A stretch of DNA of 64,000 nucleotides from Shigella phage JK42, in sequence record MK962756, one strand, 5' to 3'. Made by a program: the position numbers and the translations under genes. Numbering within the stretch: the first letter of the stretch is position 1; every line of letters starts with the position of its first letter. Shown here one piece after another: positions 15,317-32,784 of this stretch. The notes below the pieces were generated by a model. It was given only the letters and a program-made list of their open reading frames with translations. It searched no databases and was not told the DNA's origin.

Positions 15317-15514
15317 ATGTTTAAACTTCCATCGTTAATCAACGCTATTAAAGGCAATAAAAAGAAAACTGCTATAGCTGCAATAGTTGTAGGTGGCATT
15401 ATTTCATGGAACTTCGGGATTGCACCGTTGTTAGTTGCCCATGGTGTTATGGTTCCTTCTGTTCCTTTGGATACTGTAGTTGATTTGGCCTTTGCTATTA
15501 TAGGGCTTGTTTAA
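15317..15514 (+). CDS. small hydrophobic (membrane) protein, plus strand
   Basis: 65 aa, largely hydrophobic; strong SD TAAGGAGA 6 nt upstream of ATG; convergent with gene 61, divergent from gene 56. Confidence 0.45.
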   Translation: MFKLPSLINAIKGNKKKTAIAAIVVGGIISWNFGIAPLLVAHGVMVPSVPLDTVVDLAFAIIGLV

Positions 15515-16533
15515 ATCTTCGAATAACGAGATAATCTCATTTTAGCATGCAACCCACTTGAAATATTCTGTTTCATATATTCTAAAATTTCTTGTGGTGT
15601 TGCATTTTCTTTCATTACCATATCATTCACATCCTTTGATCTCCATGGAGCTCGGTCCCAGAACATGACACGTTCGCCTGCATCAACTAATCGCTTCATG
15701 CGAGCTATAGTATCTGGATGCCTAGGTTCATTATCCATTACCCATACCCGACGTTCTTTAAATGGTACCACATCTAAATCTATCGAGCCGCCTGTAATAG
15801 CGATTGCATTGGGTATGAATAAACTATCAATAGGGCCTTCCATTACCCAGACGTCCCCTTCCTTAACACGTTCAACACCATAAATTTTTGTTGCAGACTC
15901 AAACGCTTTAATAGTGATATATTTCTGAGGAGCATCTTTACGAAGTGCACGTCCTTGGAATGACTCGGCCTTCCCATCTTTATTAAAAATAGGAATAACT
16001 AAACGTGGTTCGGGAATCTCTTTCTTATACGTACCAGGTTGAATCTTGTTGACCAATTTGGGCCATTCTAATGTGAACCATAATCTGTTCCACGATTCTT
16101 TAGGAATACACCGAGACTTAACATATTTCACAATAGGATGCTCTTCAGGCAACTTGTCCAGACGAGAACAAGACGGCAAAGAATTTATAGTCTTTTTCTC
16201 CGGTTCTGGTTTATGTTCATGAACCTTTTCAATCTTTGGTTCCATTCTAGCTTTTTCTTTACGAACTTCCATTAGATATTCGCGATAAAGCTCTTCATCA
16301 TACTCTTTTAAGTATCCGGAAATTGTATTGTGGTATTGACAGTTATAGCAATGTACATTACCAGGAGTACCACCGTAATACCATCCGCGGGCTTTCATTG
16401 CATCTGTCTGGGAGTCGCCACAAACTGGACAACGAAACGTTAATTTAAATGTGCTTGAATTATTGATTTGTCTAAAACGAGGGAGGTGAGAAAACGCACG
16501 ATAAGCAAATTCATTATCTATCCATTCAGCCAT
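15511..16533 (-). CDS. 61: DNA primase
   Basis: 340 aa; N-terminal zinc ribbon CPVCGD...CYNCQYH; matches T4 gp61 in length and position. Confidence 0.9.
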   Translation of the reverse strand: MAEWIDNEFAYRAFSHLPRFRQINNSSTFKLTFRCPVCGDSQTDAMKARGWYYGGTPGNVHCYNCQYHNTISGYLKEYDEELYREYLMEVRKEKARMEPKIEKVHEHKPEPEKKTINSLPSCSRLDKLPEEHPIVKYVKSRCIPKESWNRLWFTLEWPKLVNKIQPGTYKKEIPEPRLVIPIFNKDGKAESFQGRALRKDAPQKYITIKAFESATKIYGVERVKEGDVWVMEGPIDSLFIPNAIAITGGSIDLDVVPFKERRVWVMDNEPRHPDTIARMKRLVDAGERVMFWDRAPWRSKDVNDMVMKENATPQEILEYMKQNISSGLHAKMRLSRYSKI

Positions 16534-17258: not shown

Positions 17259-17918
17259 TTAACCTCGATTCATAAATGCATTAAATATTTGGTCATCAAC
17301 AGAAATTTCTAATTCGACTTCAATTGCTTCAGCCTTTTCTTCAGGTGGTAATTCGTATCCACACACTACAATTTTTTCATCGATATCAAAATATATAGAA
17401 GCAATACGATTAATGTTATTTTCAGTTAAGTCCAAATCAACATCAACATCTTTTTGGCCTACACTTAGAGGATAACTAATACGGGTTATTTTATTATCTT
17501 TAACAAAGAGTCCACCAACATACTCTGTACTACGTTTGAAGTTTACACGTTTCCGAATTGAAAGATATGATACATCTTTACCGTGAGCTCGGCTCATAGG
17601 ACATAATGAATAGCTAGAATAAGAGATGTCAAATCCTACACCTTCAATATGAGCCAACGTGTCATGATTAAACCAATTATAATCATATGCCAAATCCATT
17701 ATATTGTAATATGTGAAAGGCACAGGATTAACATCATATGTTGTACCTTTAAAATCTGCCCAGGCAACGATTTCGTTATCTTTAACAATTACAAAAATTA
17801 CACCAATATGGTATCCGTTATTATTTTCATTCGGCGTTATATTATAACATTGTGCATTAGGAAATTTACCATATTTAAATGGCGCATTTTTGTGCATATA
17901 ATAAATCATATTATTCAC
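17259..17918 (-). CDS. hypothetical protein
   Basis: 219-aa ORF. Confidence 0.5.
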   Translation of the reverse strand: MNNMIYYMHKNAPFKYGKFPNAQCYNITPNENNNGYHIGVIFVIVKDNEIVAWADFKGTTYDVNPVPFTYYNIMDLAYDYNWFNHDTLAHIEGVGFDISYSSYSLCPMSRAHGKDVSYLSIRKRVNFKRSTEYVGGLFVKDNKITRISYPLSVGQKDVDVDLDLTENNINRIASIYFDIDEKIVVCGYELPPEEKAEAIEVELEISVDDQIFNAFMNRG

Positions 17919-18204
17919 CTGTGATTTCGGTTACGATATCTTTGTTATCGAAATTAGGGTCACAATACAAAACATAGTTGTACTGCATGATACCGCCAGA
18001 CTTAAGTTGTTCAACAACTTTATTAACCATATTAGGACGGTCTCGTTTAGTGATGTTCATGATATCAGAGAAGATTTGTTGTTCAACATCTTCTTGATTT
18101 GCAGTCATTGACCACTCACAGAGGTCTTTATCATAACCTGCCGTAACTGGAGCCGGTGCACATGATACTGCAAGTAAGATTGCTGCCAATGATAACTTTT
18201 TCAT
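17911..18204 (-). CDS. sp: Spackle periplasmic protein (superinfection exclusion / lysis inhibition)
   Basis: 97 aa with signal peptide; GYDKDLCEWSMTA...IMNI.KRDRP...LKSGG.MQYNYVLYCD matches remembered T4 Sp. Confidence 0.75.
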   Translation of the reverse strand: MKKLSLAAILLAVSCAPAPVTAGYDKDLCEWSMTANQEDVEQQIFSDIMNITKRDRPNMVNKVVEQLKSGGIMQYNYVLYCDPNFDNKDIVTEITGE

Positions 18205-18267
18205 TTTAACTCCTTAGTTGATTTGATAGGACTACTATACTATAGTCCATCTATAATGTAAACAAGT

Positions 18268-18516
18268 TTATTCTTTTTCGCGAATAATAATTACTTGTTG
18301 AGGCTGCTGAGCCGATTTCTTTTCGGCAACGATAGACCAAATTAAAGTTCCAATCCAACCAACCATCGTCCAGTTAAAGAGTAAAGATACAAAGAAGATT
18401 GCTGTTGTGCTTTTTGTGCCACGAATAAGTGCGATTACCCAAGGCAACATGTAAATGATGATTGAACCAATACCTGCGATTAAAACTGCTACTGAACTAG
18501 CTACGAATAATTCCAT
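18268..18516 (-). CDS. small membrane protein (two predicted TM helices)
   Basis: 82 aa, two long hydrophobic segments. Confidence 0.5.
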   Translation of the reverse strand: MELFVASSVAVLIAGIGSIIIYMLPWVIALIRGTKSTTAIFFVSLLFNWTMVGWIGTLIWSIVAEKKSAQQPQQVIIIREKE

Positions 18517-18577
18517 GTTAATTTCCTCTTGATTTGTTATGTTTATAGTATCTTGTTTTAACTTTGGTGTAAACCAA

Positions 18578-18946
18578 TTAATTAAATTTGTTTAAACGTT
18601 CAATACACTGGACGTAGTTATTCGCGATTTGTTTCTGGGTAGGCTCTTTACCAGTTGTTTCAACATAGCGAATGAATGCGATTTCAGTAGCCTGTAGACA
18701 ATGTTCTTTAACGCGTTGTTCTTTTGACAATGCTACGGTATCAGAGTCACGATAACGTTGAGCATGGGCATCAGCTTGAATCATTCGATTACCTACAGTA
18801 ACCGGGTCTTCCACTTCAACTTTAGGTTGGTCGTACTGTTTAACATTCGGATTGTAAATCAATTGGCCGACGTTATTAGGGATAAAGCCATGGGCACCAC
18901 ATCCGGTTAATCCAAACACCATTGCTAAAGCGATTAATTTTTTCAT
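18578..18946 (-). CDS. putative lipoprotein
   Basis: 122 aa; signal peptide with lipobox LTGC; early promoter upstream (18978-19014). Confidence 0.55.
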   Translation of the reverse strand: MKKLIALAMVFGLTGCGAHGFIPNNVGQLIYNPNVKQYDQPKVEVEDPVTVGNRMIQADAHAQRYRDSDTVALSKEQRVKEHCLQATEIAFIRYVETTGKEPTQKQIANNYVQCIERLNKFN

Positions 18947-19017
18947 TTCAATTTCCTCTGTAGTTGATAGAAAGATAGTAACACAGTATGTGGGGCTTGT
19001 AAACAGTTATTTTAAAA

Positions 19018-19206
19018 TTATCGAAAATCTGCTTCGAAAACTTTCTCGTCATTAACAAATGCTTTAACTAATGCTTTGTTCACTTCAGCAAGTTGTACCG
19101 TAACCCACTCGATTTCTTCGCGATCACCTGATAACATGATATCTTTAGTGAACATCTCACCGCTTTTAAACCAACCGATAAAAGTAACTTTAGTTAATTT
19201 GCTCAT
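19018..19206 (-). CDS. dmd: Dmd-like antitoxin (discriminator of mRNA degradation)
   Basis: ...VTFIGWFKSGEMFTKDIM...AEVNKALVKAF... resembles remembered T4 Dmd; start taken at the internal ATG overlapping the upstream stop (ATGA). Confidence 0.55.
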   Translation of the reverse strand: MSKLTKVTFIGWFKSGEMFTKDIMLSGDREEIEWVTVQLAEVNKALVKAFVNDEKVFEADFR

Positions 19207-19520
19207 ATTTCCTCGCAAAATGCCCATTCAGCGTGATAAACTGTAGCGCCTTTAGTATCATTCATTTGAACTACATCTACCGGAGAAATTACTCGATAGA
19301 GACGTGGTTCACCTCCATAAGAGCGTGCTGCTCGTCCTGCATAAATCTTTGCTAAACCGATATCTTCAGTAAAGAATACACGATCCAAGTTTTTCTTACG
19401 TCCAGTTTCAGACAGAACTCCTGTTTCTTCAGGAGGACAAAGCATGTTTTCGATGTTAGCTGAACTACTTGAACCGTGATAAAAAATCTTAAATTCTGCT
19501 TTACAATCGATGGTTTTCAT
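19203..19520 (-). CDS. hypothetical protein
   Basis: 105-aa ORF with early promoter upstream (~19543-19583). Confidence 0.45.
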   Translation of the reverse strand: MKTIDCKAEFKIFYHGSSSSANIENMLCPPEETGVLSETGRKKNLDRVFFTEDIGLAKIYAGRAARSYGGEPRLYRVISPVDVVQMNDTKGATVYHAEWAFCEEI

Positions 19521-19575
19521 TTTGTTCTCCAGTAGTTGATAGGTCTATAATAACACAACTACTGGAGAAGTAAAC

Positions 19576-19950
19576 TTAAAAACGTAATTTAGATATATCC
19601 GCGTTGATTTCGTTTTGGTTTGCGTCGTATGCAATTAAACGAACCGCTTTAGATGGGTCATTCAATGCATAGAAATGATGGAACATTGCTCGAACGATAT
19701 CACCATTTACGAGTTCTACCTGGATAGGAGAACCTTTTTCGAGTTGGAAATGTTCATAAGCTTTGATGGTTCGTAGATAATCAAGTTTTTGATTTCCAGC
19801 TCCAACTATTTGTACGATACGTTTGCCTGTGTTTTCCATACGAGATACAATAGTTTTAGGAGCAAGAATAACGTAGGTTGCCAGCGGAGAAACTACTTCA
19901 ACAGTTGTGTTTTCGGTGATTGCAGTAAAAATTGCTTGAGACATATTCAT
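19576..19950 (-). CDS. hypothetical protein
   Basis: 124-aa ORF with early promoter upstream (~19979-20010). Confidence 0.5.
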   Translation of the reverse strand: MNMSQAIFTAITENTTVEVVSPLATYVILAPKTIVSRMENTGKRIVQIVGAGNQKLDYLRTIKAYEHFQLEKGSPIQVELVNGDIVRAMFHHFYALNDPSKAVRLIAYDANQNEINADISKLRF

Positions 19951-20015
19951 AATGTTTTCCTCTTGGTTTGTGTAAGTACATCATATCATGCCTAGAGGAA
20001 GATGTAAACCCCGAA

Positions 20016-20033
20016 AGGAGACCGAAGTCTCCT
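20016..20033. terminator. hairpin AGGAGAC-CGAA-GTCTCCT; T-tract follows on the plus strand
   Basis: 7-bp stem; plus strand continues TTTTTATT (canonical for the plus orientation); minus strand continues UUCGGGGUUU (weaker); immediately 3' of gene 41. Confidence 0.4.
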
Positions 20034-20038
20034 TTTTA

Positions 20039-21481
20039 TTAAAATTTTAACTCATTGGCTAAGCTATCTAGGTCAGCACGTGTTGCTTTGGCTTTACCTA
20101 CGCGTTCCGTACGATTCACCTCTGCCTGACGCATCTGAGCACCTGCGTTTTCATTTACTGTGTTAGGTGTGTTCATGCCTTCTTGCTCAATCTCAACCCA
20201 TTTCTGATTGCCTTTACGTACACCCATCAGGAATTTATTCCACTTATTCTTATCGCCGTATCGTGATTTGATTTGTTTGATAAGTTGTTGTTCAGCTTGT
20301 GCAAGTTCTTCGGTTTCAATTACAGCCAACATGAAATCTGCCGTTGCTGGTAAACCTGCTGATTCTGCGATATCACTCATGTTCATGTCTGAAGCATCCC
20401 ATGCTGCACGTCCTACTTGAGCTGCAGTCCATAGAACTGTTTCAGATTCTACTGCTAATGCACGAAGTTCTTCTGCGATAGCTTTAACTAATGTGTAGCT
20501 ATTTTCAGTGTAAACTCTGATACGACAAGACCCACAAATACCTAAGTAATCAACCATGATTACAGATGGCACAAAGTTCTTCTTAAGTTTTAACTCATTA
20601 AGCAATGCACGGAATGTATTAGCATTAGCTCCGCCAGTAGGATACTGTTTAACTACTAAACGTCCTAATGTTGTTTTTGAACGCCATTTTTCCATCTTGG
20701 CTTTATATTCAGCATAAGATACGTTACCATCATCGATATCATCGAGTGATACGTCAAGCATGTTTGCATCTATACGCTTAGCACAAACTTCTTCAGCCAT
20801 TTCCATGGAAATATAAAGAACATTATGCCCTGTTTGAAGATAATCTGCAGCAAGTGAACAAAGGCCTAAAGATTTACCGACGTTAACACCAGCCATTAAA
20901 ACGTTTAGTGTACCGGTTTCAGCACCACCTTTAGTGATTTTATTCAAAATGTTTAATTTGAACGGGACCTTACGTGCTTTATTTAGATAAGAAAGCCAAC
21001 GTGCTTCATAGTCTTCCATCCAGTCATGCCCAACATAACTATCGAACGAAATTGAAAGTGCTTGACGCATAATATCAGGAATAGCTCCTACGTCAGGCAT
21101 TTTCTTGTTACGTTGTTCTGGAGGTAGTTCAGCATTAGACTGAATCTCAATGATTTTGGATGTAGCATTATACATCGCTTTTTGCTGGACATATTTCTCA
21201 GTTTCTTTAACCAACCATTCGTGGTCTTCAGGAGTATCAGCCAATTTTTCAATTAGGTCTGAAGTTCCTTTATATTCGGCTTCAGTTAAAGAACTGTTAT
21301 CTAAAGCCACCTTTAACGCATTGATAGATGGCATTGCATTATATTCGTTAACGTGGCTCTTTATAATTTTAAAGACATTTTTTGCCGGTCCACGCTCAAA
21401 ATACTCAGAATCCATATAAGGCCAGACCTTAGAAAAATAAGCCTGGTCGTATACTAGATGAGACAAAATAATTTCTACCAC
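20039..21481 (-). CDS. 41: replicative DNA helicase (DnaB-like)
   Basis: 480 aa; MVEIILSHLVYDQAYFSKVWPYMDSEYFE... matches remembered T4 gp41. Confidence 0.92.
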   Translation of the reverse strand: MVEIILSHLVYDQAYFSKVWPYMDSEYFERGPAKNVFKIIKSHVNEYNAMPSINALKVALDNSSLTEAEYKGTSDLIEKLADTPEDHEWLVKETEKYVQQKAMYNATSKIIEIQSNAELPPEQRNKKMPDVGAIPDIMRQALSISFDSYVGHDWMEDYEARWLSYLNKARKVPFKLNILNKITKGGAETGTLNVLMAGVNVGKSLGLCSLAADYLQTGHNVLYISMEMAEEVCAKRIDANMLDVSLDDIDDGNVSYAEYKAKMEKWRSKTTLGRLVVKQYPTGGANANTFRALLNELKLKKNFVPSVIMVDYLGICGSCRIRVYTENSYTLVKAIAEELRALAVESETVLWTAAQVGRAAWDASDMNMSDIAESAGLPATADFMLAVIETEELAQAEQQLIKQIKSRYGDKNKWNKFLMGVRKGNQKWVEIEQEGMNTPNTVNENAGAQMRQAEVNRTERVGKAKATRADLDSLANELKF

Positions 21482-23645: not shown

Positions 23646-24545
23646 TTATTCCTCGATTACGACATCTTCATATTTAGGTATATTATACGGCGAAGAAATT
23701 AAAGCATTAAAGTAGATGAACTCACCAAGACCTGGATGGAATACTTCTTCAGGATTTTCGAAATATTGAATTTTCGGACGTCCTTTAAGAATTTGATAGT
23801 ACTCAGTTTTAGTTGGTTTAAAAATTCGAATCAGCGCTTCTTCAGGATACTTATTTCTGTCGAAGCTATTATTTGGATCGGTTATATAAAGCGGTTGACC
23901 TAATTGAATTGCGCATTCAACAACTTGTTCAAAACGATAGCATGGGTCACTAATTCGAAATGGATGAAAAATACCATCTAGATGAATAGGAGCCAAATCA
24001 CCTACAAGACGCTGCATGATGGAAGGACGTATAACTTTCTGCGTTACGATAATCTTATTACCATCTGCACCAGCGTTAACCAGCACTTCTTTTTGACGTT
24101 CATTCAACACAGTAGTTTGAAGTGAACGATTAACCGACAACATATCGGTTTTTAAGAATTCGTCAATATAAAAACGTGGTTTATTAGGGTCTGCAGTGAT
24201 ATTGAAATTGAATTCCACATCAAAAGCGCCGTCATATCCAGTGATATCTGTGATTAGAAAATCACAATCATAATAAGCAATTAATGAATCAACCACAAAT
24301 TCATTTTCAGACCAGAAATATTTACGAGTGTTATACGCGTTATCTTTATACCATAATGGAACAAACTTAAATTCTGGAAAAAGACGTTCGCATTCTTTAA
24401 TATCAGATGCATTACGTGGATATGTAATCACATCACCCGGATTAGCACGGTGCAAATGAAGTTGGAAGTTGCCATCCTTAAGGATAGCATACTGTCCAGT
24501 TTCATAAGACCGCATACTCAAGATAGGTACGCGGAAAATAGCCAT
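23646..24545 (-). CDS. hypothetical protein (beta-gt positional replacement)
   Basis: 299-aa ORF between the kinase-like gene and gene 42; no recognisable motif. Confidence 0.5.
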   Translation of the reverse strand: MAIFRVPILSMRSYETGQYAILKDGNFQLHLHRANPGDVITYPRNASDIKECERLFPEFKFVPLWYKDNAYNTRKYFWSENEFVVDSLIAYYDCDFLITDITGYDGAFDVEFNFNITADPNKPRFYIDEFLKTDMLSVNRSLQTTVLNERQKEVLVNAGADGNKIIVTQKVIRPSIMQRLVGDLAPIHLDGIFHPFRISDPCYRFEQVVECAIQLGQPLYITDPNNSFDRNKYPEEALIRIFKPTKTEYYQILKGRPKIQYFENPEEVFHPGLGEFIYFNALISSPYNIPKYEDVVIEE

Positions 24546-25261
24546 TAGTCAAGGAATCCTTTAACATAATCAAAATCACGTTCAAACACATGGGCACTTA
24601 CCATGGTATGAGTATAATCACCAACTTCTACACCACATTCATTAGCGATATAATGAAGTAATTTTCCTTGGAGATAAAAATCCAACTGCATAACAACAGC
24701 ACAGTTCTGAGAACGCATATGACAGTGGGTATAAAGCTTACCATCACGAATATAATAAGTCACTGAGTCAGTACATGGATATTCAAGCGTTTCGTCCGAA
24801 TCAAGCAAAGCCTGATCAGAACTTTCTAGAATTTGGAACACAACTCTTCGAGAGTTAGGCTTCTCTTTAAGTTCTTTTAGAAGAGCTGGTAATTGAGCCG
24901 CAATGCGAGGACCATAGAAAGTGTTGAAGTTCGCCGGCAAAACATCTGATTTTGGTTTAGAAATAAATTTAGCGACATTAGGATATGCCTTAAACGCTTC
25001 TTCTGCGTTGGTACCACCAGAAATCATAAACTTCCAGAAGTCTTCGGCATATTCATAAGAGATGCGGTTAATACGTGGGTCGGTCATTTTGAATGATGAT
25101 GGAGTGTCAACAACTACTGTCATAGACCCAATTTCATTACAACGTCCAATACGAGAATCAGTTACGAATTCCGGGTTTTCTAAAATTTCACGATTGACTG
25201 CTTTAAATGCGGTTTGAAAATCTGCGGCTTTGATATATTTCATTGTGTTATGTTTTCCCAT
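24545..25261 (-). CDS. 42: dCMP hydroxymethylase (thymidylate-synthase fold)
   Basis: 238 aa; SRRVVFQIL...YPCTDS...YIRDGKLY...HMRSQN aligns by eye with the T4 gp42 / thymidylate synthase active-site region. Confidence 0.7.
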   Translation of the reverse strand: MGKHNTMKYIKAADFQTAFKAVNREILENPEFVTDSRIGRCNEIGSMTVVVDTPSSFKMTDPRINRISYEYAEDFWKFMISGGTNAEEAFKAYPNVAKFISKPKSDVLPANFNTFYGPRIAAQLPALLKELKEKPNSRRVVFQILESSDQALLDSDETLEYPCTDSVTYYIRDGKLYTHCHMRSQNCAVVMQLDFYLQGKLLHYIANECGVEVGDYTHTMVSAHVFERDFDYVKGFLD

Positions 25262-29684: not shown

Positions 29685-30114
29685 TCAAAAATCAAACATA
29701 TCGAACAGAGATGCTTTCTTCTCGTAATCGAGTTTAGCTGCTGATGTGAATCCTTCAAGTGGTTTAATAAATGTCTTCTCAAGGAGAACAGTGTAGTCCA
29801 TCCAATGAAGTACATCGTCTTTAATTAAATCTGTGATTTCAGTACCAGAAGGCCATGCGATACATTTATCACCGAATGGGTTTCCTTCACGTAAAGGCAG
29901 AACATATACTTTTTCACCTTCTACAACTTGTGGTGCATCAATATTACCTTTGATAGCTCGGTTATATGTCAGAATTCCACGTATATGGAACGGGCATTTA
30001 GGACCCGGGAATCCACCTACGTCGTATTTAGCAATGTTATTCGCAGAAGATACCGACGCGATGCTAATATAATTCAATTGACGGAATTCTTTTTCAAACT
30101 CTTTAAAATATTCT
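29685..30114 (-). pseudogene. detached 3' segment of gene 43 encoding the polymerase C-terminal region and clamp-binding tail
   Basis: In the polymerase frame this segment encodes ...EGFTSAAKLDYEKKASLFDMFDF, the expected gp43 C-terminus; separated from the main ORF by the duplication. Confidence 0.6.
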
Positions 30115-30502
30115 ACTTCATTGGATGGCTGATGTGAATCCTTCAAGTGGTTTAATAAATGTCTTCTCAAGGAGAACAGTGTAGTCCATCCAATGAAGTA
30201 CATCGTCTTTAATTAAATCTGTGATTTCAGTACCAGAAGGCCATGCGATACATTTATCACCGAATGGGTTTCCTTCACGTAAAGGCAGAACATATACTTT
30301 TTCACCTTCTACAACTTGTGGTGCATCAATATTACCTTTGATAGCTCGGTTATATGTCAGAATTCCACGAATATGGAACGGGCATTTAGGACCCGGGAAT
30401 CCACCTACGTCGTATTTAGCAATGTTATTCGCAGAAGATACCGACGCGATGCTAATATAATTCAATTGACGGAATTCTTTTTCAAACTCTTTAAAATATT
30501 CT
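29740..30502. repeat. 375-bp direct repeat, two copies (29740-30114 and 30128-30502), joined by a 13-bp spacer
   Basis: Read directly: copies identical except one mismatch (t/a near 29986/30374); the spacer acttcattggatg is the reverse complement of catccaatgaagt found inside the repeat; period 388 bp is not a multiple of 3. Confidence 0.9.
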
Positions 30503-32784
30503 TGTAATGATTCTTCACCTTCTTGAAGCATACGACGAATACATTCTTTAAGAGCTTTCTGTACTGCTTTAGGGGTCGAAGATTTCTGAGTCTCTAGACC
30601 CATGATTTTGAGTTTAGGCTCAGCGTATCTGGTTCCTTCCATATCCCACACGTTTAATGCATAACGTTTCTTACCAGTCCAGAATCCACCAATACCTTTA
30701 GAACCGAGCGGAGGACCAGCGATAGCTTCTCGGTCCATGAACATTAAGTGTTGTTTATTGTTCATGTATTCACACATTTCACGGAAACCTTTATCAATAG
30801 CTGGTTCCATACGTTCACGAGCGAACTTATCTAAGAAGTCTACCCAATGGTTGGTATCACGGAATTTAGATTCACCAACCTTATCAATAATTTTATCTGC
30901 AGATACGTAAATGGAGTCTGTATCACCATATAGAACGAAAGCTTCACCTTCTGTACCACAAACTTCATTCAGATATTCATTAACTTTACGTTCAATCCAC
31001 TGTAAAGCCATTTGTCCGAATGTTGTGATTGCAGTAGCATTACGCAAATCATAATAACGGAACCAAACGTTGCCAAGTGCACCATAAAGTGAGTTGATAA
31101 GCAATTTACGGTTAATTTGTGCGGTCATACCTGCAACTTCAGTACGTTGAGCTCTAAACAACATTTCATTAAGAGATTTAGCAGACAACTTTTTAATCTT
31201 TTCTTTAATCTCATCACTGAAGTCGAAACGATAATCAACATCTAATGGTTCGTCAACAGAAAGATTAGGATTATGCAATGCCTCTTTAATTATTTCGCCG
31301 TTACGTTGAGCCGCAAGCATGTAACCTTTATGTTCTTTACGTTGATTAAAGACCTTAGTGATTTCAGTTGGAACTACACCATCACGGTCTTTATAATACA
31401 TCATGCCGTTAGGAGAGCAACTGTACACATCTGAAGGACGTTCAGCGATTGCGTTAATATAATCATGCAGTGGAGCTACTTTAAACGTTCCTGCTATTGT
31501 TTCCGGGCTAATATTCACTTGGCGAATAATACTTGGATACAGAGATGTAAGGTCGAAACTCATTACATATTTGTATCGATTTGGAATAGGTTCCTTAACA
31601 AAAGCGCCAGGATAAGGTTGAACCGGGTGAGAACGACCTTGTGGAATCACCTTGTTTTGTTCTTTAAGGCTATTAAAAATAATAGCATCCCAAGTTTTAA
31701 TTGGACTGAACACAGATTGAATCTGAATTTTAGCATAATAACCCATGTCCAAGCTCAAGTTGATGAACTGACGCTTAGAATCAATTTGCAATACACGATA
31801 CACGTCGATAATGTTATAAGAAATATATCGTTGGTGATTGCTTTCACGAAGCTTAGAAATAGGGCCGTCATATTTCAGTTTACCAACGTTCAATTCAAAT
31901 TCTGAAATGTAATCCAGAGAATACGACGGTTGATTGGTAAAAGAGAATTTTTTGTAAAGGTCAATGTAATCAAGAACAGAGATACCGAACAATGTAATGA
32001 TTTCACGAGAACCATACATGTTTTCGATAACTTTAACACGAGTTTTACGATGTGGCGATAAACGTTTCGCAGTAGATTCGCCAAAAATATTCTTGATTCG
32101 GTTATACACATATGGAATATCAAATGACTCAACGTTCCATCCAGTCAAAATGACAGGAGTTTTCTGTTGCCAGAAGTTGAGATATTCCATCAACAATTCT
32201 TTTTCGTTATCGAACGGCATATAAATGATTTTATCGATAATTTCAGATGGAACTTCATCACCGCCTTGTTCTTGAAGCTTAGCAGCGATTTCAATAGACC
32301 ATTCTTCTACATTACCATATGGAGAATTCAATAGATCAAATACGTAGAACCTGTCGTCAATTGAGTCATAATGGGTGATAGCATCAATCGGATGTTTTGC
32401 TTGTGACGGCTCAGGGAACCCATCCGGAGATGTTACTTCGATGTCGAAGTTAGCCACACGAATTTTTGTATGGTCGTATTTGATTTCATAGTTATAAGTG
32501 TCAGACAAATACGCCAATTTGAAATCGTCCATGCCAAGTGCTTCAAGTCCGATATCTTCCATGCGTTTAATCCATTGGGAGGCATCACGCATATTAGCGA
32601 ACAGCTTACGAGTACACGGCTTACCGTAGATATCGAAATATTTCGTAGCCTGACTTTCTGGACAATGAGCAAACAGTGATGGTTTATATTCTACTTCACG
32701 AGTACGTTCACGGCCATTAGAATCGATGTAACGTTCAAAAATTGAATCACCAATCTGTTCAACCGTTAAGTAAAATTCTTTCAT
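30118..32784 (-). CDS. 43: DNA polymerase (family B), C-terminally truncated by the duplication frameshift
   Basis: 888 aa; MKEFYLTVEQIGDSIFERYIDSNGRERTREVEYKP... matches remembered T4/RB69 gp43; the ORF ends ...EGFTSAIQ instead of the clamp-binding tail. Confidence 0.9.
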   Translation of the reverse strand: MKEFYLTVEQIGDSIFERYIDSNGRERTREVEYKPSLFAHCPESQATKYFDIYGKPCTRKLFANMRDASQWIKRMEDIGLEALGMDDFKLAYLSDTYNYEIKYDHTKIRVANFDIEVTSPDGFPEPSQAKHPIDAITHYDSIDDRFYVFDLLNSPYGNVEEWSIEIAAKLQEQGGDEVPSEIIDKIIYMPFDNEKELLMEYLNFWQQKTPVILTGWNVESFDIPYVYNRIKNIFGESTAKRLSPHRKTRVKVIENMYGSREIITLFGISVLDYIDLYKKFSFTNQPSYSLDYISEFELNVGKLKYDGPISKLRESNHQRYISYNIIDVYRVLQIDSKRQFINLSLDMGYYAKIQIQSVFSPIKTWDAIIFNSLKEQNKVIPQGRSHPVQPYPGAFVKEPIPNRYKYVMSFDLTSLYPSIIRQVNISPETIAGTFKVAPLHDYINAIAERPSDVYSCSPNGMMYYKDRDGVVPTEITKVFNQRKEHKGYMLAAQRNGEIIKEALHNPNLSVDEPLDVDYRFDFSDEIKEKIKKLSAKSLNEMLFRAQRTEVAGMTAQINRKLLINSLYGALGNVWFRYYDLRNATAITTFGQMALQWIERKVNEYLNEVCGTEGEAFVLYGDTDSIYVSADKIIDKVGESKFRDTNHWVDFLDKFARERMEPAIDKGFREMCEYMNNKQHLMFMDREAIAGPPLGSKGIGGFWTGKKRYALNVWDMEGTRYAEPKLKIMGLETQKSSTPKAVQKALKECIRRMLQEGEESLQEYFKEFEKEFRQLNYISIASVSSANNIAKYDVGGFPGPKCPFHIRGILTYNRAIKGNIDAPQVVEGEKVYVLPLREGNPFGDKCIAWPSGTEITDLIKDDVLHWMDYTVLLEKTFIKPLEGFTSAIQ

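What the first reader, a model, noticed from the sequence alone, without database searches (positions are those of the whole stretch)
17911..19206. Envelope and antitoxin cluster between primase and helicase: sp, membrane protein, lipoprotein, dmd
Spackle (periplasmic superinfection-exclusion protein), an 82-aa two-helix membrane protein, a 122-aa lipoprotein with an LTGC lipobox and a Dmd-like antitoxin lie in a row, most with their own early promoters. The lipoprotein is not something I recall from T4 and could be an additional superinfection-exclusion or receptor-masking factor. Two more unknown ORFs sit between dmd and gene 41.
Basis: partly seen in the sequence, partly recalled or inferred. 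Interest (0 to 1): 0.4.

Follow-up and report, generated by a model that had tools for sequence, protein, structure and literature searches.

The report
RB69-type sp–imm–imm.1–dmd early gene cluster
This is the ordinary, already annotated early-gene cluster of an RB69-like T4-type phage (spackle, the Imm immunity protein, its little-studied lipoprotein neighbour Imm.1, and the Dmd antitoxin); the only open question is what the lipoprotein does, and it turns out to travel with the imm gene throughout T4-like phages.

Summary
On the minus strand, 17911-19206 encodes Spackle, an 82-aa membrane protein, a 122-aa lipoprotein (LTGC lipobox) and Dmd. Each except dmd has its own T4-early-type promoter. 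The window is a Mosigvirus (99.8% to phage JK45), and all four genes are annotated in RB69.

- The membrane protein is Imm, the superinfection immunity protein (PF14373).
- The lipoprotein is Imm.1 (DUF5481). T4 has it too, at 32% identity with an LAGC lipobox, directly upstream of imm.

New here: a lipobox protein lies next to imm in 20 of 20 T4-like contigs surveyed. The imm.1-imm pair occurs in at least three genomic contexts, and Imm.1 diverges about twice as fast as its neighbours. No function has been published.

The best inference is that Imm.1 is a periplasmic, usually outer-membrane-anchored accessory of the superinfection-exclusion layer (Sp blocks gp5 lysozyme; Imm blocks the tape-measure protein). 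This rests on gene adjacency only. Imm works without Imm.1 in published assays.

Of the two ORFs between dmd and gene 41, the 105-aa one is translationally coupled to dmd and folds like Arr/KptA ADP-ribosyltransferases.

Verdict: known locus, modest interest.

The parts
17911..18204 (-). sp (spackle, T4 gene 61.3 homologue): secreted inhibitor of the tail-spike gp5 lysozyme
   Evidence: PF25676 at 1.1e-42. Matches PDB 6x6o T4 Spackle at 1.4e-39 over residues 1-97, with Cys29 and Cys81 kept. 66% identical to T4 Sp. Mechanism taken from PMC7677548.
18234..18263 (-). early-promoter-like site upstream of sp (GTTTACA-17-TATAGT)
18268..18516 (-). imm (superinfection immunity inner-membrane protein)
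   Evidence: PF14373 at 1.8e-15. phrog_1039 'immunity to superinfection' at 1.2e-30. 64% identical to T4 Imm. Two hydrophobic segments. R32 and W49 are invariant in the alignment and correspond to T4 R33 and W50, whose mutation impairs exclusion.
18545..18574 (-). early-promoter-like site upstream of imm (GTTTACA-17-TACTAT)
18578..18946 (-). imm.1 (DUF5481): predicted lipoprotein with signal MKKLIALAMVFGLTG|C16 and Gly at +2. The mature part has a poorly ordered N-terminal half and a C-terminal helical hairpin carrying Cys83 and Cys114.
   Evidence: PF17578 at 3.7e-9. phrog_1754 at 5e-29. 99% identical to RB69 Imm.1 NP_861727 and 32-33% to T4 Imm.1. AF2 gives pLDDT about 90 only for residues 75-120. 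Lipobox detector result.
18975..19004 (-). early-promoter-like site upstream of imm.1 (GTTTACA-17-TACTAT)
   Evidence: Conserved in RB69.
19018..19206 (-). dmd (T4 61.5 homologue), antitoxin against RnlA/LsoA. It has no promoter of its own, and its start overlaps the stop of the upstream ORF (ATGA).
   Evidence: PF17587 at 7e-21. Matches PDB 5i8j RB69 Dmd at 2.2e-36 with 60 of 62 residues identical, and 5hy3_B T4 Dmd at 1.1e-17. Overlap read from the sequence.
19203..19520 (-). 105-aa ORF (RB69ORF040c family, phrog_2110): predicted mini ADP-ribosyltransferase fold, first gene of the two-gene unit that includes dmd
   Evidence: AF2 pLDDT 87.9. Foldseek top hits are Arr 2hw2/9iaf (prob 1.00, TMq 0.62) and KptA/Tpt1. 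Found in 609 phage records, with no Tequatrovirus among the listed rows. Invariant H15, G16, Y60, E103.
19547..19575 (-). early-promoter-like site upstream of the 105-aa ORF/dmd unit
19576..19950 (-). 124-aa ORF of unknown function (RB69ORF041c family, phrog_10668)
   Evidence: No Pfam or NCBIfam match.
19980..20009 (-). early-promoter-like site upstream of the 124-aa ORF
17259..17918 (-). flanking gene adfA (T4 61.2 homologue, anti-DarT factor A), RB69-type R164 allele
   Evidence: PF23813 at 2e-119. 99% identical to RB69 gp61.2, with R164 kept. Allele meaning from PMC11825919.

Best explanation
Shown: the region is the Mosigvirus (RB69-type) early-gene block sp - imm - imm.1 - dmd, lying between primase gene 61 and helicase gene 41. 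Sp is the secreted inhibitor of the gp5 tail lysozyme. The 82-aa protein is Imm, the inner-membrane protein that stops DNA translocation of superinfecting phage. Dmd is the RnlA/LsoA antitoxin. The lipoprotein is Imm.1, the conserved neighbour of imm.

Inferred: Imm.1 is exported by Sec. It is lipid-modified at Cys16 and, having no Asp at +2, is sorted by Lol to the inner leaflet of the outer membrane. It reaches into the periplasm through a flexible tether of about 50 residues that ends in a disulfide-stapled helical hairpin. There it most likely acts as an accessory, fast-evolving (specificity-determining) layer of the same envelope-defence function as Imm and Sp, by binding a periplasm-exposed part of an incoming tail tip or a host periplasmic factor. 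In Mosigviruses the imm.1-imm pair has been moved next to sp, giving one three-gene envelope island.

Confidence is split. Gene identities are about 0.97. Export and lipidation of Imm.1 is about 0.85. A role in superinfection exclusion or envelope protection together with Imm is about 0.35-0.4. The overall figure of 0.5 averages these.
For: Identity of the genes:
- The region is 99.8% identical to JK45, and RB69, mogra and AV115 annotate the same genes.

Imm.1 equals T4 imm.1:
- tblastn finds 656 phage records, including RB69 imm.1 (99%) and T4, T2 and RB51 imm.1 (32-33%).
- T4 Imm.1 reads MKIAILVIALGLAGC....

Pairing with imm:
- Every DUF5481 representative with known context lies 7-61 nt upstream of a PF14373 gene: the window, T4, P0002, P0005, P0008 and P0009.
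- These sit in three different surroundings: 43|42, frd.3-side, and dmd|sp.
- An exhaustive HMM search of 1.84 billion representatives finds only 6 family members, so the family is confined to this niche.
- Gelderland-, Moon-, Jiaoda- and Muldoonvirus and Serratia 4S carry 146-152-aa lipobox proteins directly upstream of imm. Gaprivervirus and fDHCT2-type phages carry one just downstream.
- With signal peptides removed, profile-profile comparison of the two groups gives 69-88% probability, E of 3e-6 to 4e-5, over 110-118 columns with both C-terminal Cys aligned.
- In a survey of 80 IMG/VR loci with an Imm homologue, 20 of 21 contigs of 100 kb or more have a same-strand lipobox ORF within 800 bp. 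The one exception is a high-GC contig that is not T4-like. Among smaller contigs the figure is 8 of 59.
- Hit density is 32 per 140 kb near imm against 6 per 320 kb elsewhere.

Periplasmic location:
- The lipobox or a type I signal peptide is kept in all members, none has Asp at +2, and mature parts carry 2 or 4 Cys.
- AF2 places Cys83 and Cys114 on the two confident helices.

Fast evolution: T4 against the window gives gp43 61%, Imm 64%, Sp 66% and Imm.1 32%.

Mechanistic frame: Sp binds the gp5 lysozyme (PMC7677548). T4 Imm binds the tape-measure protein gp29 (bioRxiv 10.64898/2026.03.06.709160).

Early expression: each gene has its own GTTTAC-type promoter.
Against: - There is no experimental or interaction evidence for any Imm.1 function. 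Literature searches found none.
- Imm alone, expressed from a plasmid, excludes T4 in the 2026 preprint's plaque assays. By my recollection of Lu & Henning 1989 (paper not held), disrupting imm abolishes immunity. So Imm.1 appears neither necessary nor sufficient for the classical phenotype.
- Two metagenomic lineages (P0002, P0005) replaced the lipobox with a signal-peptidase-I site, so membrane anchoring is dispensable.
- In the window, imm.1 and imm have separate promoters rather than tight coupling.
- The link between DUF5481 and the larger lipoproteins of other genera is weak. hhalign fails when the window sequence defines the match columns, and pairwise E-values are marginal.
- The AF2 model is poor outside the hairpin (pLDDT 63.6), and Foldseek finds nothing.
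Confidence: 0.5

Rival explanations
1. Imm.1 is a receptor- or adsorption-masking lipoprotein of the T5 Llp / phi80 Cor kind. It would sit in the outer membrane and inactivate the phage's own receptor, so that progeny and superinfecting phage are not lost on infected cells.
For: It is a predicted outer-membrane lipoprotein made early. It diverges rapidly between phage groups, as expected for a protein that tracks receptor or receptor-binding specificity. Lipoprotein exclusion factors of this kind exist (PMC9586334, listed).
Against: No sequence or fold similarity to Llp or Cor: Pfam returns only DUF5481, and Foldseek against PDB returns nothing. The gene tracks imm, which acts after adsorption at the inner membrane, rather than tail-fibre or receptor-binding genes. 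Two lineages are soluble periplasmic proteins without a lipid anchor, which fits poorly with masking an outer-membrane protein.
Confidence: 0.12
2. Imm.1 protects the infected envelope in another way. It could inhibit a periplasmic enzyme (a lysozyme or transglycosylase, as the MliC/PliC lipoproteins do, or endonuclease I), or it could modulate lysis from without or lysis inhibition. It would not block DNA entry itself.
For: It is periplasmic, disulfide-containing, small and helical, like Sp. In Mosigviruses it sits beside sp. Both imm and sp mutants have partial lysis-inhibition defects (PMC6832632), so the neighbourhood is linked to envelope damage control.
Against: No fold match to known lysozyme inhibitors. 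No conserved catalytic or inhibitory motif could be recognised. The conserved partner across genera is imm, not sp.
Confidence: 0.2
3. The adjacency to imm is historical only. Imm.1 would be an unrelated small early 'moron' that hitch-hikes with imm in a hyperplastic region and has an independent or dispensable role.
For: The family is tiny and poorly conserved. Imm functions without it. The 61-41 and 43-42 intervals are known indel hot spots, for example the loss of 61.4 here. The window's imm.1 has its own promoter.
Against: Adjacency survives relocation to at least three contexts, and it survives an inversion of gene order (downstream in Gaprivervirus and the fDHCT2 type), across genera whose Imm proteins are only 38-53% identical.
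Confidence: 0.15
4. Imm.1 is the outer-membrane spanin subunit (o-spanin) of a lysis cassette.
For: It is a small outer-membrane lipoprotein with periplasmic cysteines.
Against: It has an early-type promoter, not a late one. Its neighbour is Imm, a small polytopic protein without the long periplasmic coiled coil of an i-spanin. From background knowledge, T4's spanins are PseT.3/PseT.2, encoded elsewhere. The mature part is not proline-rich.
Confidence: 0.02

Closest known systems
T4 / RB69 Imm.1 (Pfam DUF5481, PF17578; RB69 NP_861727.1, 'conserved hypothetical predicted membrane protein')
   Same: The window protein is 99% identical to RB69 Imm.1 and 32-33% to T4 Imm.1. It has the same length class, the same lipobox position, the same two C-terminal cysteines and the same place directly upstream of imm.
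   Different: Nothing of substance relative to RB69. Relative to T4, the pair lies between dmd and sp instead of between genes 43 and 42. The gap to imm is 61 nt with a promoter instead of 7 nt. The N-terminal VVxxSxVGK segment and one Cys pair are missing.
T4 Imm (PF14373), superinfection immunity protein that binds the tape-measure protein gp29
   Same: The 82-aa protein is 64% identical to T4 Imm. It has the same two hydrophobic segments and keeps the residues equivalent to R33 and W50, which are needed for exclusion.
   Different: Genomic position only.
T4 Spackle (PF25676; PDB 6x6o, 7cn6)
   Same: 66% identical, full-length match, and both disulfide cysteines are present.
   Different: None relevant.
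T5 Llp and phi80/N15 Cor (phage lipoproteins that block FhuA)
   Same: These are phage-encoded, early-made outer-membrane lipoproteins implicated in excluding further infection. This is what Imm.1 might work like.
   Different: No detectable sequence or fold relationship. Imm.1 is linked to an inner-membrane DNA-entry blocker rather than to receptor usage. Some Imm.1 relatives are not lipidated.
Arr (rifampin ADP-ribosyltransferase, PDB 2hw2) and KptA/Tpt1, for the 105-aa ORF upstream of dmd
   Same: The predicted fold matches (Foldseek prob 0.98-1.00, TMq 0.62 to Arr), and there is an N-terminal H-G motif.
   Different: Only 105 aa. No Pfam, NCBIfam or PDB sequence match. Substrate unknown. 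Translationally coupled to an antitoxin gene.

Membership tests
T4 Spackle (PF25676) | Profile match above the curated cut-off over the full length | tested here: met
   145 bits against 27, residues 1-96 of 96. PDB 6x6o at 1.4e-39.
T4 Spackle (PF25676) | Export signal and the Cys29-Cys81 disulfide pair | tested here: met
   N-terminal hydrophobic segment at residues 4-24. Both cysteines align with T4 Sp. The disulfide is described in PMC7677548.
T4 Spackle (PF25676) | Binds and inhibits the gp5 lysozyme domain | not testable with these tools
   Needs biochemistry.
Imm superinfection immunity protein (PF14373) | Profile match above the curated cut-off | tested here: met
   56.9 bits against 27.9. 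phrog_1039 at 1.2e-30.
Imm superinfection immunity protein (PF14373) | Small polytopic inner-membrane protein with the functionally required Arg and Trp (T4 R33, W50) | tested here: met
   Hydrophobic segments at 1-34 and 40-59. R32 and W49 are invariant in 9 Imm sequences.
Imm superinfection immunity protein (PF14373) | Blocks genome translocation / binds the tape-measure protein | not testable with these tools
   Needs infection assays or co-purification.
Imm.1 / DUF5481 (PF17578) | Profile match above the curated cut-off | tested here: met
   37.3 bits against 27. 99% identical to RB69 Imm.1.
Imm.1 / DUF5481 (PF17578) | Gene lies immediately upstream of imm on the same strand | tested here: met
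   A 61-nt gap in the window. The same arrangement holds in T4, L005-L007, L109 and L110.
Bacterial lipoprotein (signal peptidase II substrate) | Positively charged n-region, hydrophobic h-region, lipobox [LVI][ASTVI][GAS]C with Cys at about residues 15-25 | tested here: met
   MKK-LIALAMVFG-LTG-C16. A lipobox is conserved in 11 of 13 relatives examined.
Bacterial lipoprotein (signal peptidase II substrate) | Actual diacylglyceryl modification, LspA cleavage and Lol sorting (no Asp at +2) | not testable with these tools
   Gly at +2 predicts outer-membrane sorting by the E. coli +2 rule (background knowledge). SignalP and LipoP were not available. Labelling and globomycin tests are needed.
Dmd antitoxin (PF17587) | Profile match and near-identity to a solved Dmd | tested here: met
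   74.7 bits against 27. PDB 5i8j RB69 Dmd at 2.2e-36, and 5hy3_B T4 Dmd at 1.1e-17.
Dmd antitoxin (PF17587) | Neutralises RnlA/LsoA | not testable with these tools
   Needs toxin co-expression.
Llp/Cor receptor-blocking lipoproteins | Sequence or fold relationship to Llp or Cor | tested here: not met
   The only Pfam hit is DUF5481. No Foldseek PDB match with E of 0.001 or better. No PDB sequence hit with the family profile.
o-spanin | Late-expressed lipoprotein gene embedded in or next to an i-spanin gene | tested here: not met
   Early-type promoter. The neighbours are imm and dmd.
ADP-ribosyltransferase fold, Arr/KptA branch (105-aa ORF) | Fold similarity to solved members | tested here: met
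   AF2 pLDDT 87.9. Foldseek hits 9iaf/2hw2 with prob 1.00 and TMq 0.61-0.62, and KptA/Tpt1 with prob 0.98-0.99. E-values are only 7e-3 to 3e-2.
ADP-ribosyltransferase fold, Arr/KptA branch (105-aa ORF) | Sequence-profile membership and a verified catalytic triad | tested here: inconclusive
   No Pfam, NCBIfam or PDB sequence hit even at E of 10. H15, Y60 and E103 are invariant, but their positions in the active site were not checked.

The most novel reading that the evidence does not exclude
Imm.1 is a third, so far unrecognised component of T-even superinfection exclusion. It would be a periplasmic, usually outer-membrane-tethered partner of Imm that captures a periplasm-exposed part of the incoming injection machinery, such as the tape-measure protein, the gp27-gp5 hub or the tube tip. 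Its rapid divergence would set which related phages are excluded. Together with Sp and Imm it would form a layered outer-membrane, periplasm and inner-membrane barrier, and in Mosigviruses all three genes sit in one island.
Probability: 0.3. Interest if true: 0.55.

Novelty: already known. Interest (0 to 1): 0.3.

Why it matters
As a locus it does not matter much. It is the annotated RB69-type arrangement of well-known T-even early genes.

The useful residue is a cheap, testable lead. Imm's mechanism (binding the tape-measure protein) has only just been proposed, and Sp's is solved. The lipoprotein encoded next to imm in essentially every T4-like phage has never been examined.

If Imm.1 contributes to exclusion or sets its specificity, it could help explain mutual exclusion between T-even groups (for example, RB69 excluding T4). 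It would also matter for designing phage cocktails.

The Arr-like mini-ADP-ribosyltransferase coupled to dmd is a second small lead, for counter-defence biology.

Tried and rejected
- **Word-indexed protein search with Imm.1** found only 3 proteins; with a 3-sequence profile it found 6. The exhaustive HMM search also gave only 6 representatives. The family is simply small, and no bacterial homologue offers a functional hint.
- **PDB sequence search with the family profile** found nothing at E of 10.
- **AF2 model of Imm.1** is confident only for the C-terminal hairpin. Foldseek against PDB gave only meaningless helical hits with E of 3 or more.
- **First hhalign runs.** With signal peptides included, the run aligned essentially only the signal plus a short motif, which is not evidence of homology. 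With the window sequence defining match columns it failed. Homology to the larger lipoproteins rests on the mature-only runs and is moderate.
- **NCBIfam** gave nothing for any of the five proteins. PADLOC was not run.
- **Literature.** 'DUF5481' had no hits. 'imm.1' had two incidental mentions. Lu & Henning 1989 is not held, so statements about it rest on memory.
- **Second imm copy.** I checked whether the window holds one at the T4 position, between genes 43 and 42. It does not.
- **Spanin reading** was rejected on promoter class and neighbours.
Full report
**What is there.** The window is a Mosigvirus (RB69-like T-even phage). Positions 17700-20100 are 99.8% identical to Shigella phage JK45 and 99% or more to many E. 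coli phages. All genes in the region are on the minus strand. Reading in the direction of transcription, from helicase gene 41 (20039-21481) towards primase gene 61 (15511-16533):
- a 124-aa ORF (19576-19950)
- a 105-aa ORF (19203-19520)
- dmd (19018-19206)
- the 122-aa lipoprotein (18578-18946)
- the 82-aa membrane protein (18268-18516)
- sp (17911-18204)
- adfA / 61.2 (17259-17918)

**Promoters.** The T4 early-promoter signature GTTTAC-N16-19-TANNNT occurs 21 times in the window against 3.75 expected (0 of 100 shuffles reach 21). Of these, 19 are on the minus strand. Five are packed into 18234-20009, one each 20-40 nt upstream of sp, the membrane protein, the lipoprotein, the 105-aa ORF and the 124-aa ORF. 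dmd has none. Its ATG overlaps the stop codon of the 105-aa ORF (ATGA), so the two genes form one translationally coupled unit.

**Identities.**
- *Sp:* PF25676 at 145 bits. It matches PDB 6x6o (T4 Spackle) at 1.4e-39 over the full length, and both disulfide cysteines are kept.
- *Dmd:* PF17587. It differs at 2 of 62 residues from the solved RB69 Dmd, 5i8j.
- *The 82-aa protein* is not an anonymous membrane protein. It is Imm, the superinfection immunity protein (PF14373; phrog_1039 'immunity to superinfection'; 64% identical to T4 Imm). It has two hydrophobic segments. It keeps the Arg and Trp (R32, W49) equivalent to T4 R33 and W50, whose mutation weakens exclusion in a 2026 preprint. That preprint shows that T4 Imm binds the tape-measure protein gp29.
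- *The lipoprotein* is Imm.1 (Pfam DUF5481). It is 99% identical to the RB69 gene annotated 'Imm.1 conserved hypothetical predicted membrane protein', and 32-33% identical to T4, T2 and RB51 imm.1.

T4 does have this gene. In T4 the order is 43 - imm.1 - imm - 42, and T4 Imm.1 begins MKIAILVIALGLAGC, a canonical lipobox. The window has a single imm, and none at the T4 position. So, relative to T4, the imm.1-imm pair sits in Mosigviruses between dmd and sp. The RB69 reference additionally has gene 61.4 between dmd and imm.1. The window lacks it through a 206-bp deletion.

**What Imm.1 looks like.**
- The precursor has an MKK n-region, a hydrophobic core, LTG|C16, and Gly at +2.
- A purpose-written lipobox detector finds only two ORFs in the whole 64-kb window, Imm.1 and Sp.
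- AlphaFold2 with the shallow family alignment is confident only for a C-terminal helical hairpin (helices 75-98 and 104-120, pLDDT about 90). The hairpin carries the two invariant cysteines, C83 and C114.
- Residues 17-70 are predicted poorly. They contain two conserved motifs, YNPNVKxY and AQxYRxSD.
- Foldseek against the PDB and a profile search of PDB sequences find nothing.

**Distribution and gene pairing (the main new result).**
- DUF5481 is a tiny family: 6 clusters in the word-indexed search and 6 representatives in an exhaustive HMM scan of 1.84 billion proteins.
- Every member with known context lies immediately upstream of a PF14373 gene. Three different surroundings occur: 43|42 in T4-like contigs, a frd.3-side context in L007, and dmd|sp here.
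- Two metagenomic members (P0002, P0005) have replaced the lipobox by an AHA| type I cleavage site. Export is therefore conserved, but the lipid anchor is not obligatory.
- Other Straboviridae whose Imm is only 38-53% identical also carry a 146-167-aa lipobox protein (LAGC, LTGC or LSGC; never Asp at +2) next to imm. It is upstream in Gelderland-, Moon-, Jiaoda- and Muldoonvirus and Serratia phage 4S. It is downstream in Gaprivervirus RZ and fDHCT2.
- These proteins share the layout of Imm.1: a G-[DE]-V-V-x-A-x-x-V-G-K segment after the lipid Cys, a G-x-L-[IV]-Y motif, a charged helical stretch and two C-terminal cysteines.
- With signal peptides removed, profile-profile comparison gives 69-88% probability, E of 3e-6 to 4e-5, over 110-118 columns. 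An earlier run with unsuitable match columns failed, so the homology is probable, not proven.
- In 80 IMG/VR loci retrieved with an Imm profile, 20 of 21 contigs of 100 kb or more have a same-strand lipobox ORF within 800 bp of imm. The one exception is a high-GC contig that is not T4-like. The figure for shorter, mostly non-T4-like contigs is 8 of 59.
- Lipobox ORFs are about 12-fold denser near imm than in the flanks.
- Imm.1 also evolves faster than its neighbours. T4 against the window gives gp43 61%, Imm 64%, Sp 66% and Imm.1 32%.

**How it most likely works.**
- *Shown:* the gene identities, the export signal, the conserved adjacency to imm and the early-type promoters.
- *Established elsewhere:* Sp inhibits the gp5 tail lysozyme in the periplasm (PMC7677548). 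Imm sits in the inner membrane and binds the tape-measure protein, blocking genome translocation (preprint).
- *Inferred:* Imm.1 is lipidated at Cys16 and sent to the outer membrane, because it lacks Asp at +2 (the E. coli sorting rule, from background knowledge). It projects a flexible tether with a disulfide-stapled hairpin into the periplasm. It acts as an accessory layer of the same defence, which is rapidly diversifying and may therefore determine specificity.
- I put about 0.35-0.4 on this functional statement.
- *Against it:* Imm alone suffices for exclusion in plasmid assays. By my recollection of Lu & Henning 1989 (paper not available), disrupting imm abolishes immunity. So Imm.1 is at most a modulator of the classical phenotype, or it acts on other phages.
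- *Rivals:* receptor masking of the Llp/Cor kind (0.12), another envelope-protection or lysis-timing role (0.2), mere hitch-hiking (0.15), and o-spanin (0.02). Each is set out with its refuting experiment in the rival section.

**The two ORFs between dmd and 41.**
- The 124-aa ORF (phrog_10668) stays unknown.
- The 105-aa ORF (phrog_2110, RB69ORF040c) is strongly conserved, at 60-100% identity in 609 phage records from Escherichia, Klebsiella, Acinetobacter, Aeromonas and Vibrio phages. No Tequatrovirus appears among the listed rows.
- It has no sequence-profile match.
- Its AF2 model is confident (pLDDT 87.9). Its best PDB fold matches are rifampin ADP-ribosyltransferase Arr (prob 1.00, TMq 0.62) and the RNA 2'-phosphotransferase KptA/Tpt1.
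- H15-G16, Y60 and E103 are invariant.
- A few GenBank records already call it 'putative ADP-ribosyl transferase'.
- Its translational coupling to the Dmd antitoxin is noteworthy but unexplained.

**Comparison and verdict.** The locus is already known. Each gene is annotated in RB69 and its relatives, and three of the four have characterised T4 counterparts. It is nevertheless true that Imm.1 has no published function. One comparative paper merely lists it among T4-versus-RB69 group differences and assumes a superinfection role 'to be proven' (PMC5885020). The near-universal imm-lipoprotein pairing documented here gives a concrete, cheap experiment. Interest is modest, at 0.3.

Noticed in passing
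window 29740-30502 (gene 43, minus strand): A direct duplication of about 375 nt (29740-30114 and 30128-30502; spacing 388 nt, one mismatch, 13-nt junction) lies inside the DNA polymerase gene. It splits gp43 into an 888-aa ORF (30118-32784) and a 172-aa ORF (29685-30203) that repeats the C-terminal 150 or so residues. None of the more than 150 close relatives has it: a 1501-nt query maps onto 1113 nt in two pieces, and JK45 has a single 2712-nt CDS. It could be a recent duplication, an assembly artefact or an engineered change. This was not resolved.
   Followed up: partly
window 19203-19520 (minus strand): This 105-aa ORF is translationally coupled to dmd (ATGA overlap). Its confident AF2 model matches Arr and KptA/Tpt1 ADP-ribosyltransferase folds. 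It is highly conserved across Straboviridae but absent from T4-type phages in the listed hits. No sequence-profile hit and no known substrate.
   Followed up: partly
window 17911-18204 (Sp, residues 11-23); loci L097-L108: All Spackle homologues down to 46% identity keep a lipobox-like [LVA][ASV]-S-C at residues 12-15, inside what is treated as a cleavable signal peptide. A signal-peptidase-I-type AxA|G/N-YD site follows. T4 has the canonical LASC, and the window has AVSC. The invariant Cys15 raises the question whether Sp is, at least transiently, a lipoprotein. The structural papers worked with residues 23-97.
   Followed up: partly
window 18947-19017; L004 2728-2940: RB69 and many relatives carry gene 61.4 (70 aa) between dmd and imm.1. 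The window, like JK45, lacks it through a 206-bp deletion that also changes the last codon of dmd (EADFR* against EADFRG*).
   Followed up: yes
window 17259-17918 (adfA / 61.2): The anti-DarT factor A gene carries Arg at position 164. This is the RB69-type allele, reported not to neutralise DarT1, whereas His at 164 does.
   Followed up: yes
L060 (76-aa ORF 22 nt upstream of imm), L084 (159-aa ORF 7 nt downstream), L092 (89-aa ORF 150 nt upstream): A few phage contigs that are not T4-like also have a lipobox ORF right next to their Imm-domain gene. These ORFs appear unrelated in sequence to Imm.1. The pairing may have arisen more than once.
   Followed up: no
P0003 (198 aa, ENA): This database protein joins a DNA polymerase I fragment (PF00476) to the last 28 residues of Imm.1 at 100% identity. 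It is most likely a chimeric metagenome assembly, not a real fusion.
   Followed up: no
window 24545-25261 (238-aa ORF): The window ORF most similar to T4 gp42 (dCMP hydroxymethylase) is only 25% identical to it, whereas gp43, Imm and Sp are 61-66% identical. This fits a different thymidylate-synthase-family enzyme in this phage group.
   Followed up: no
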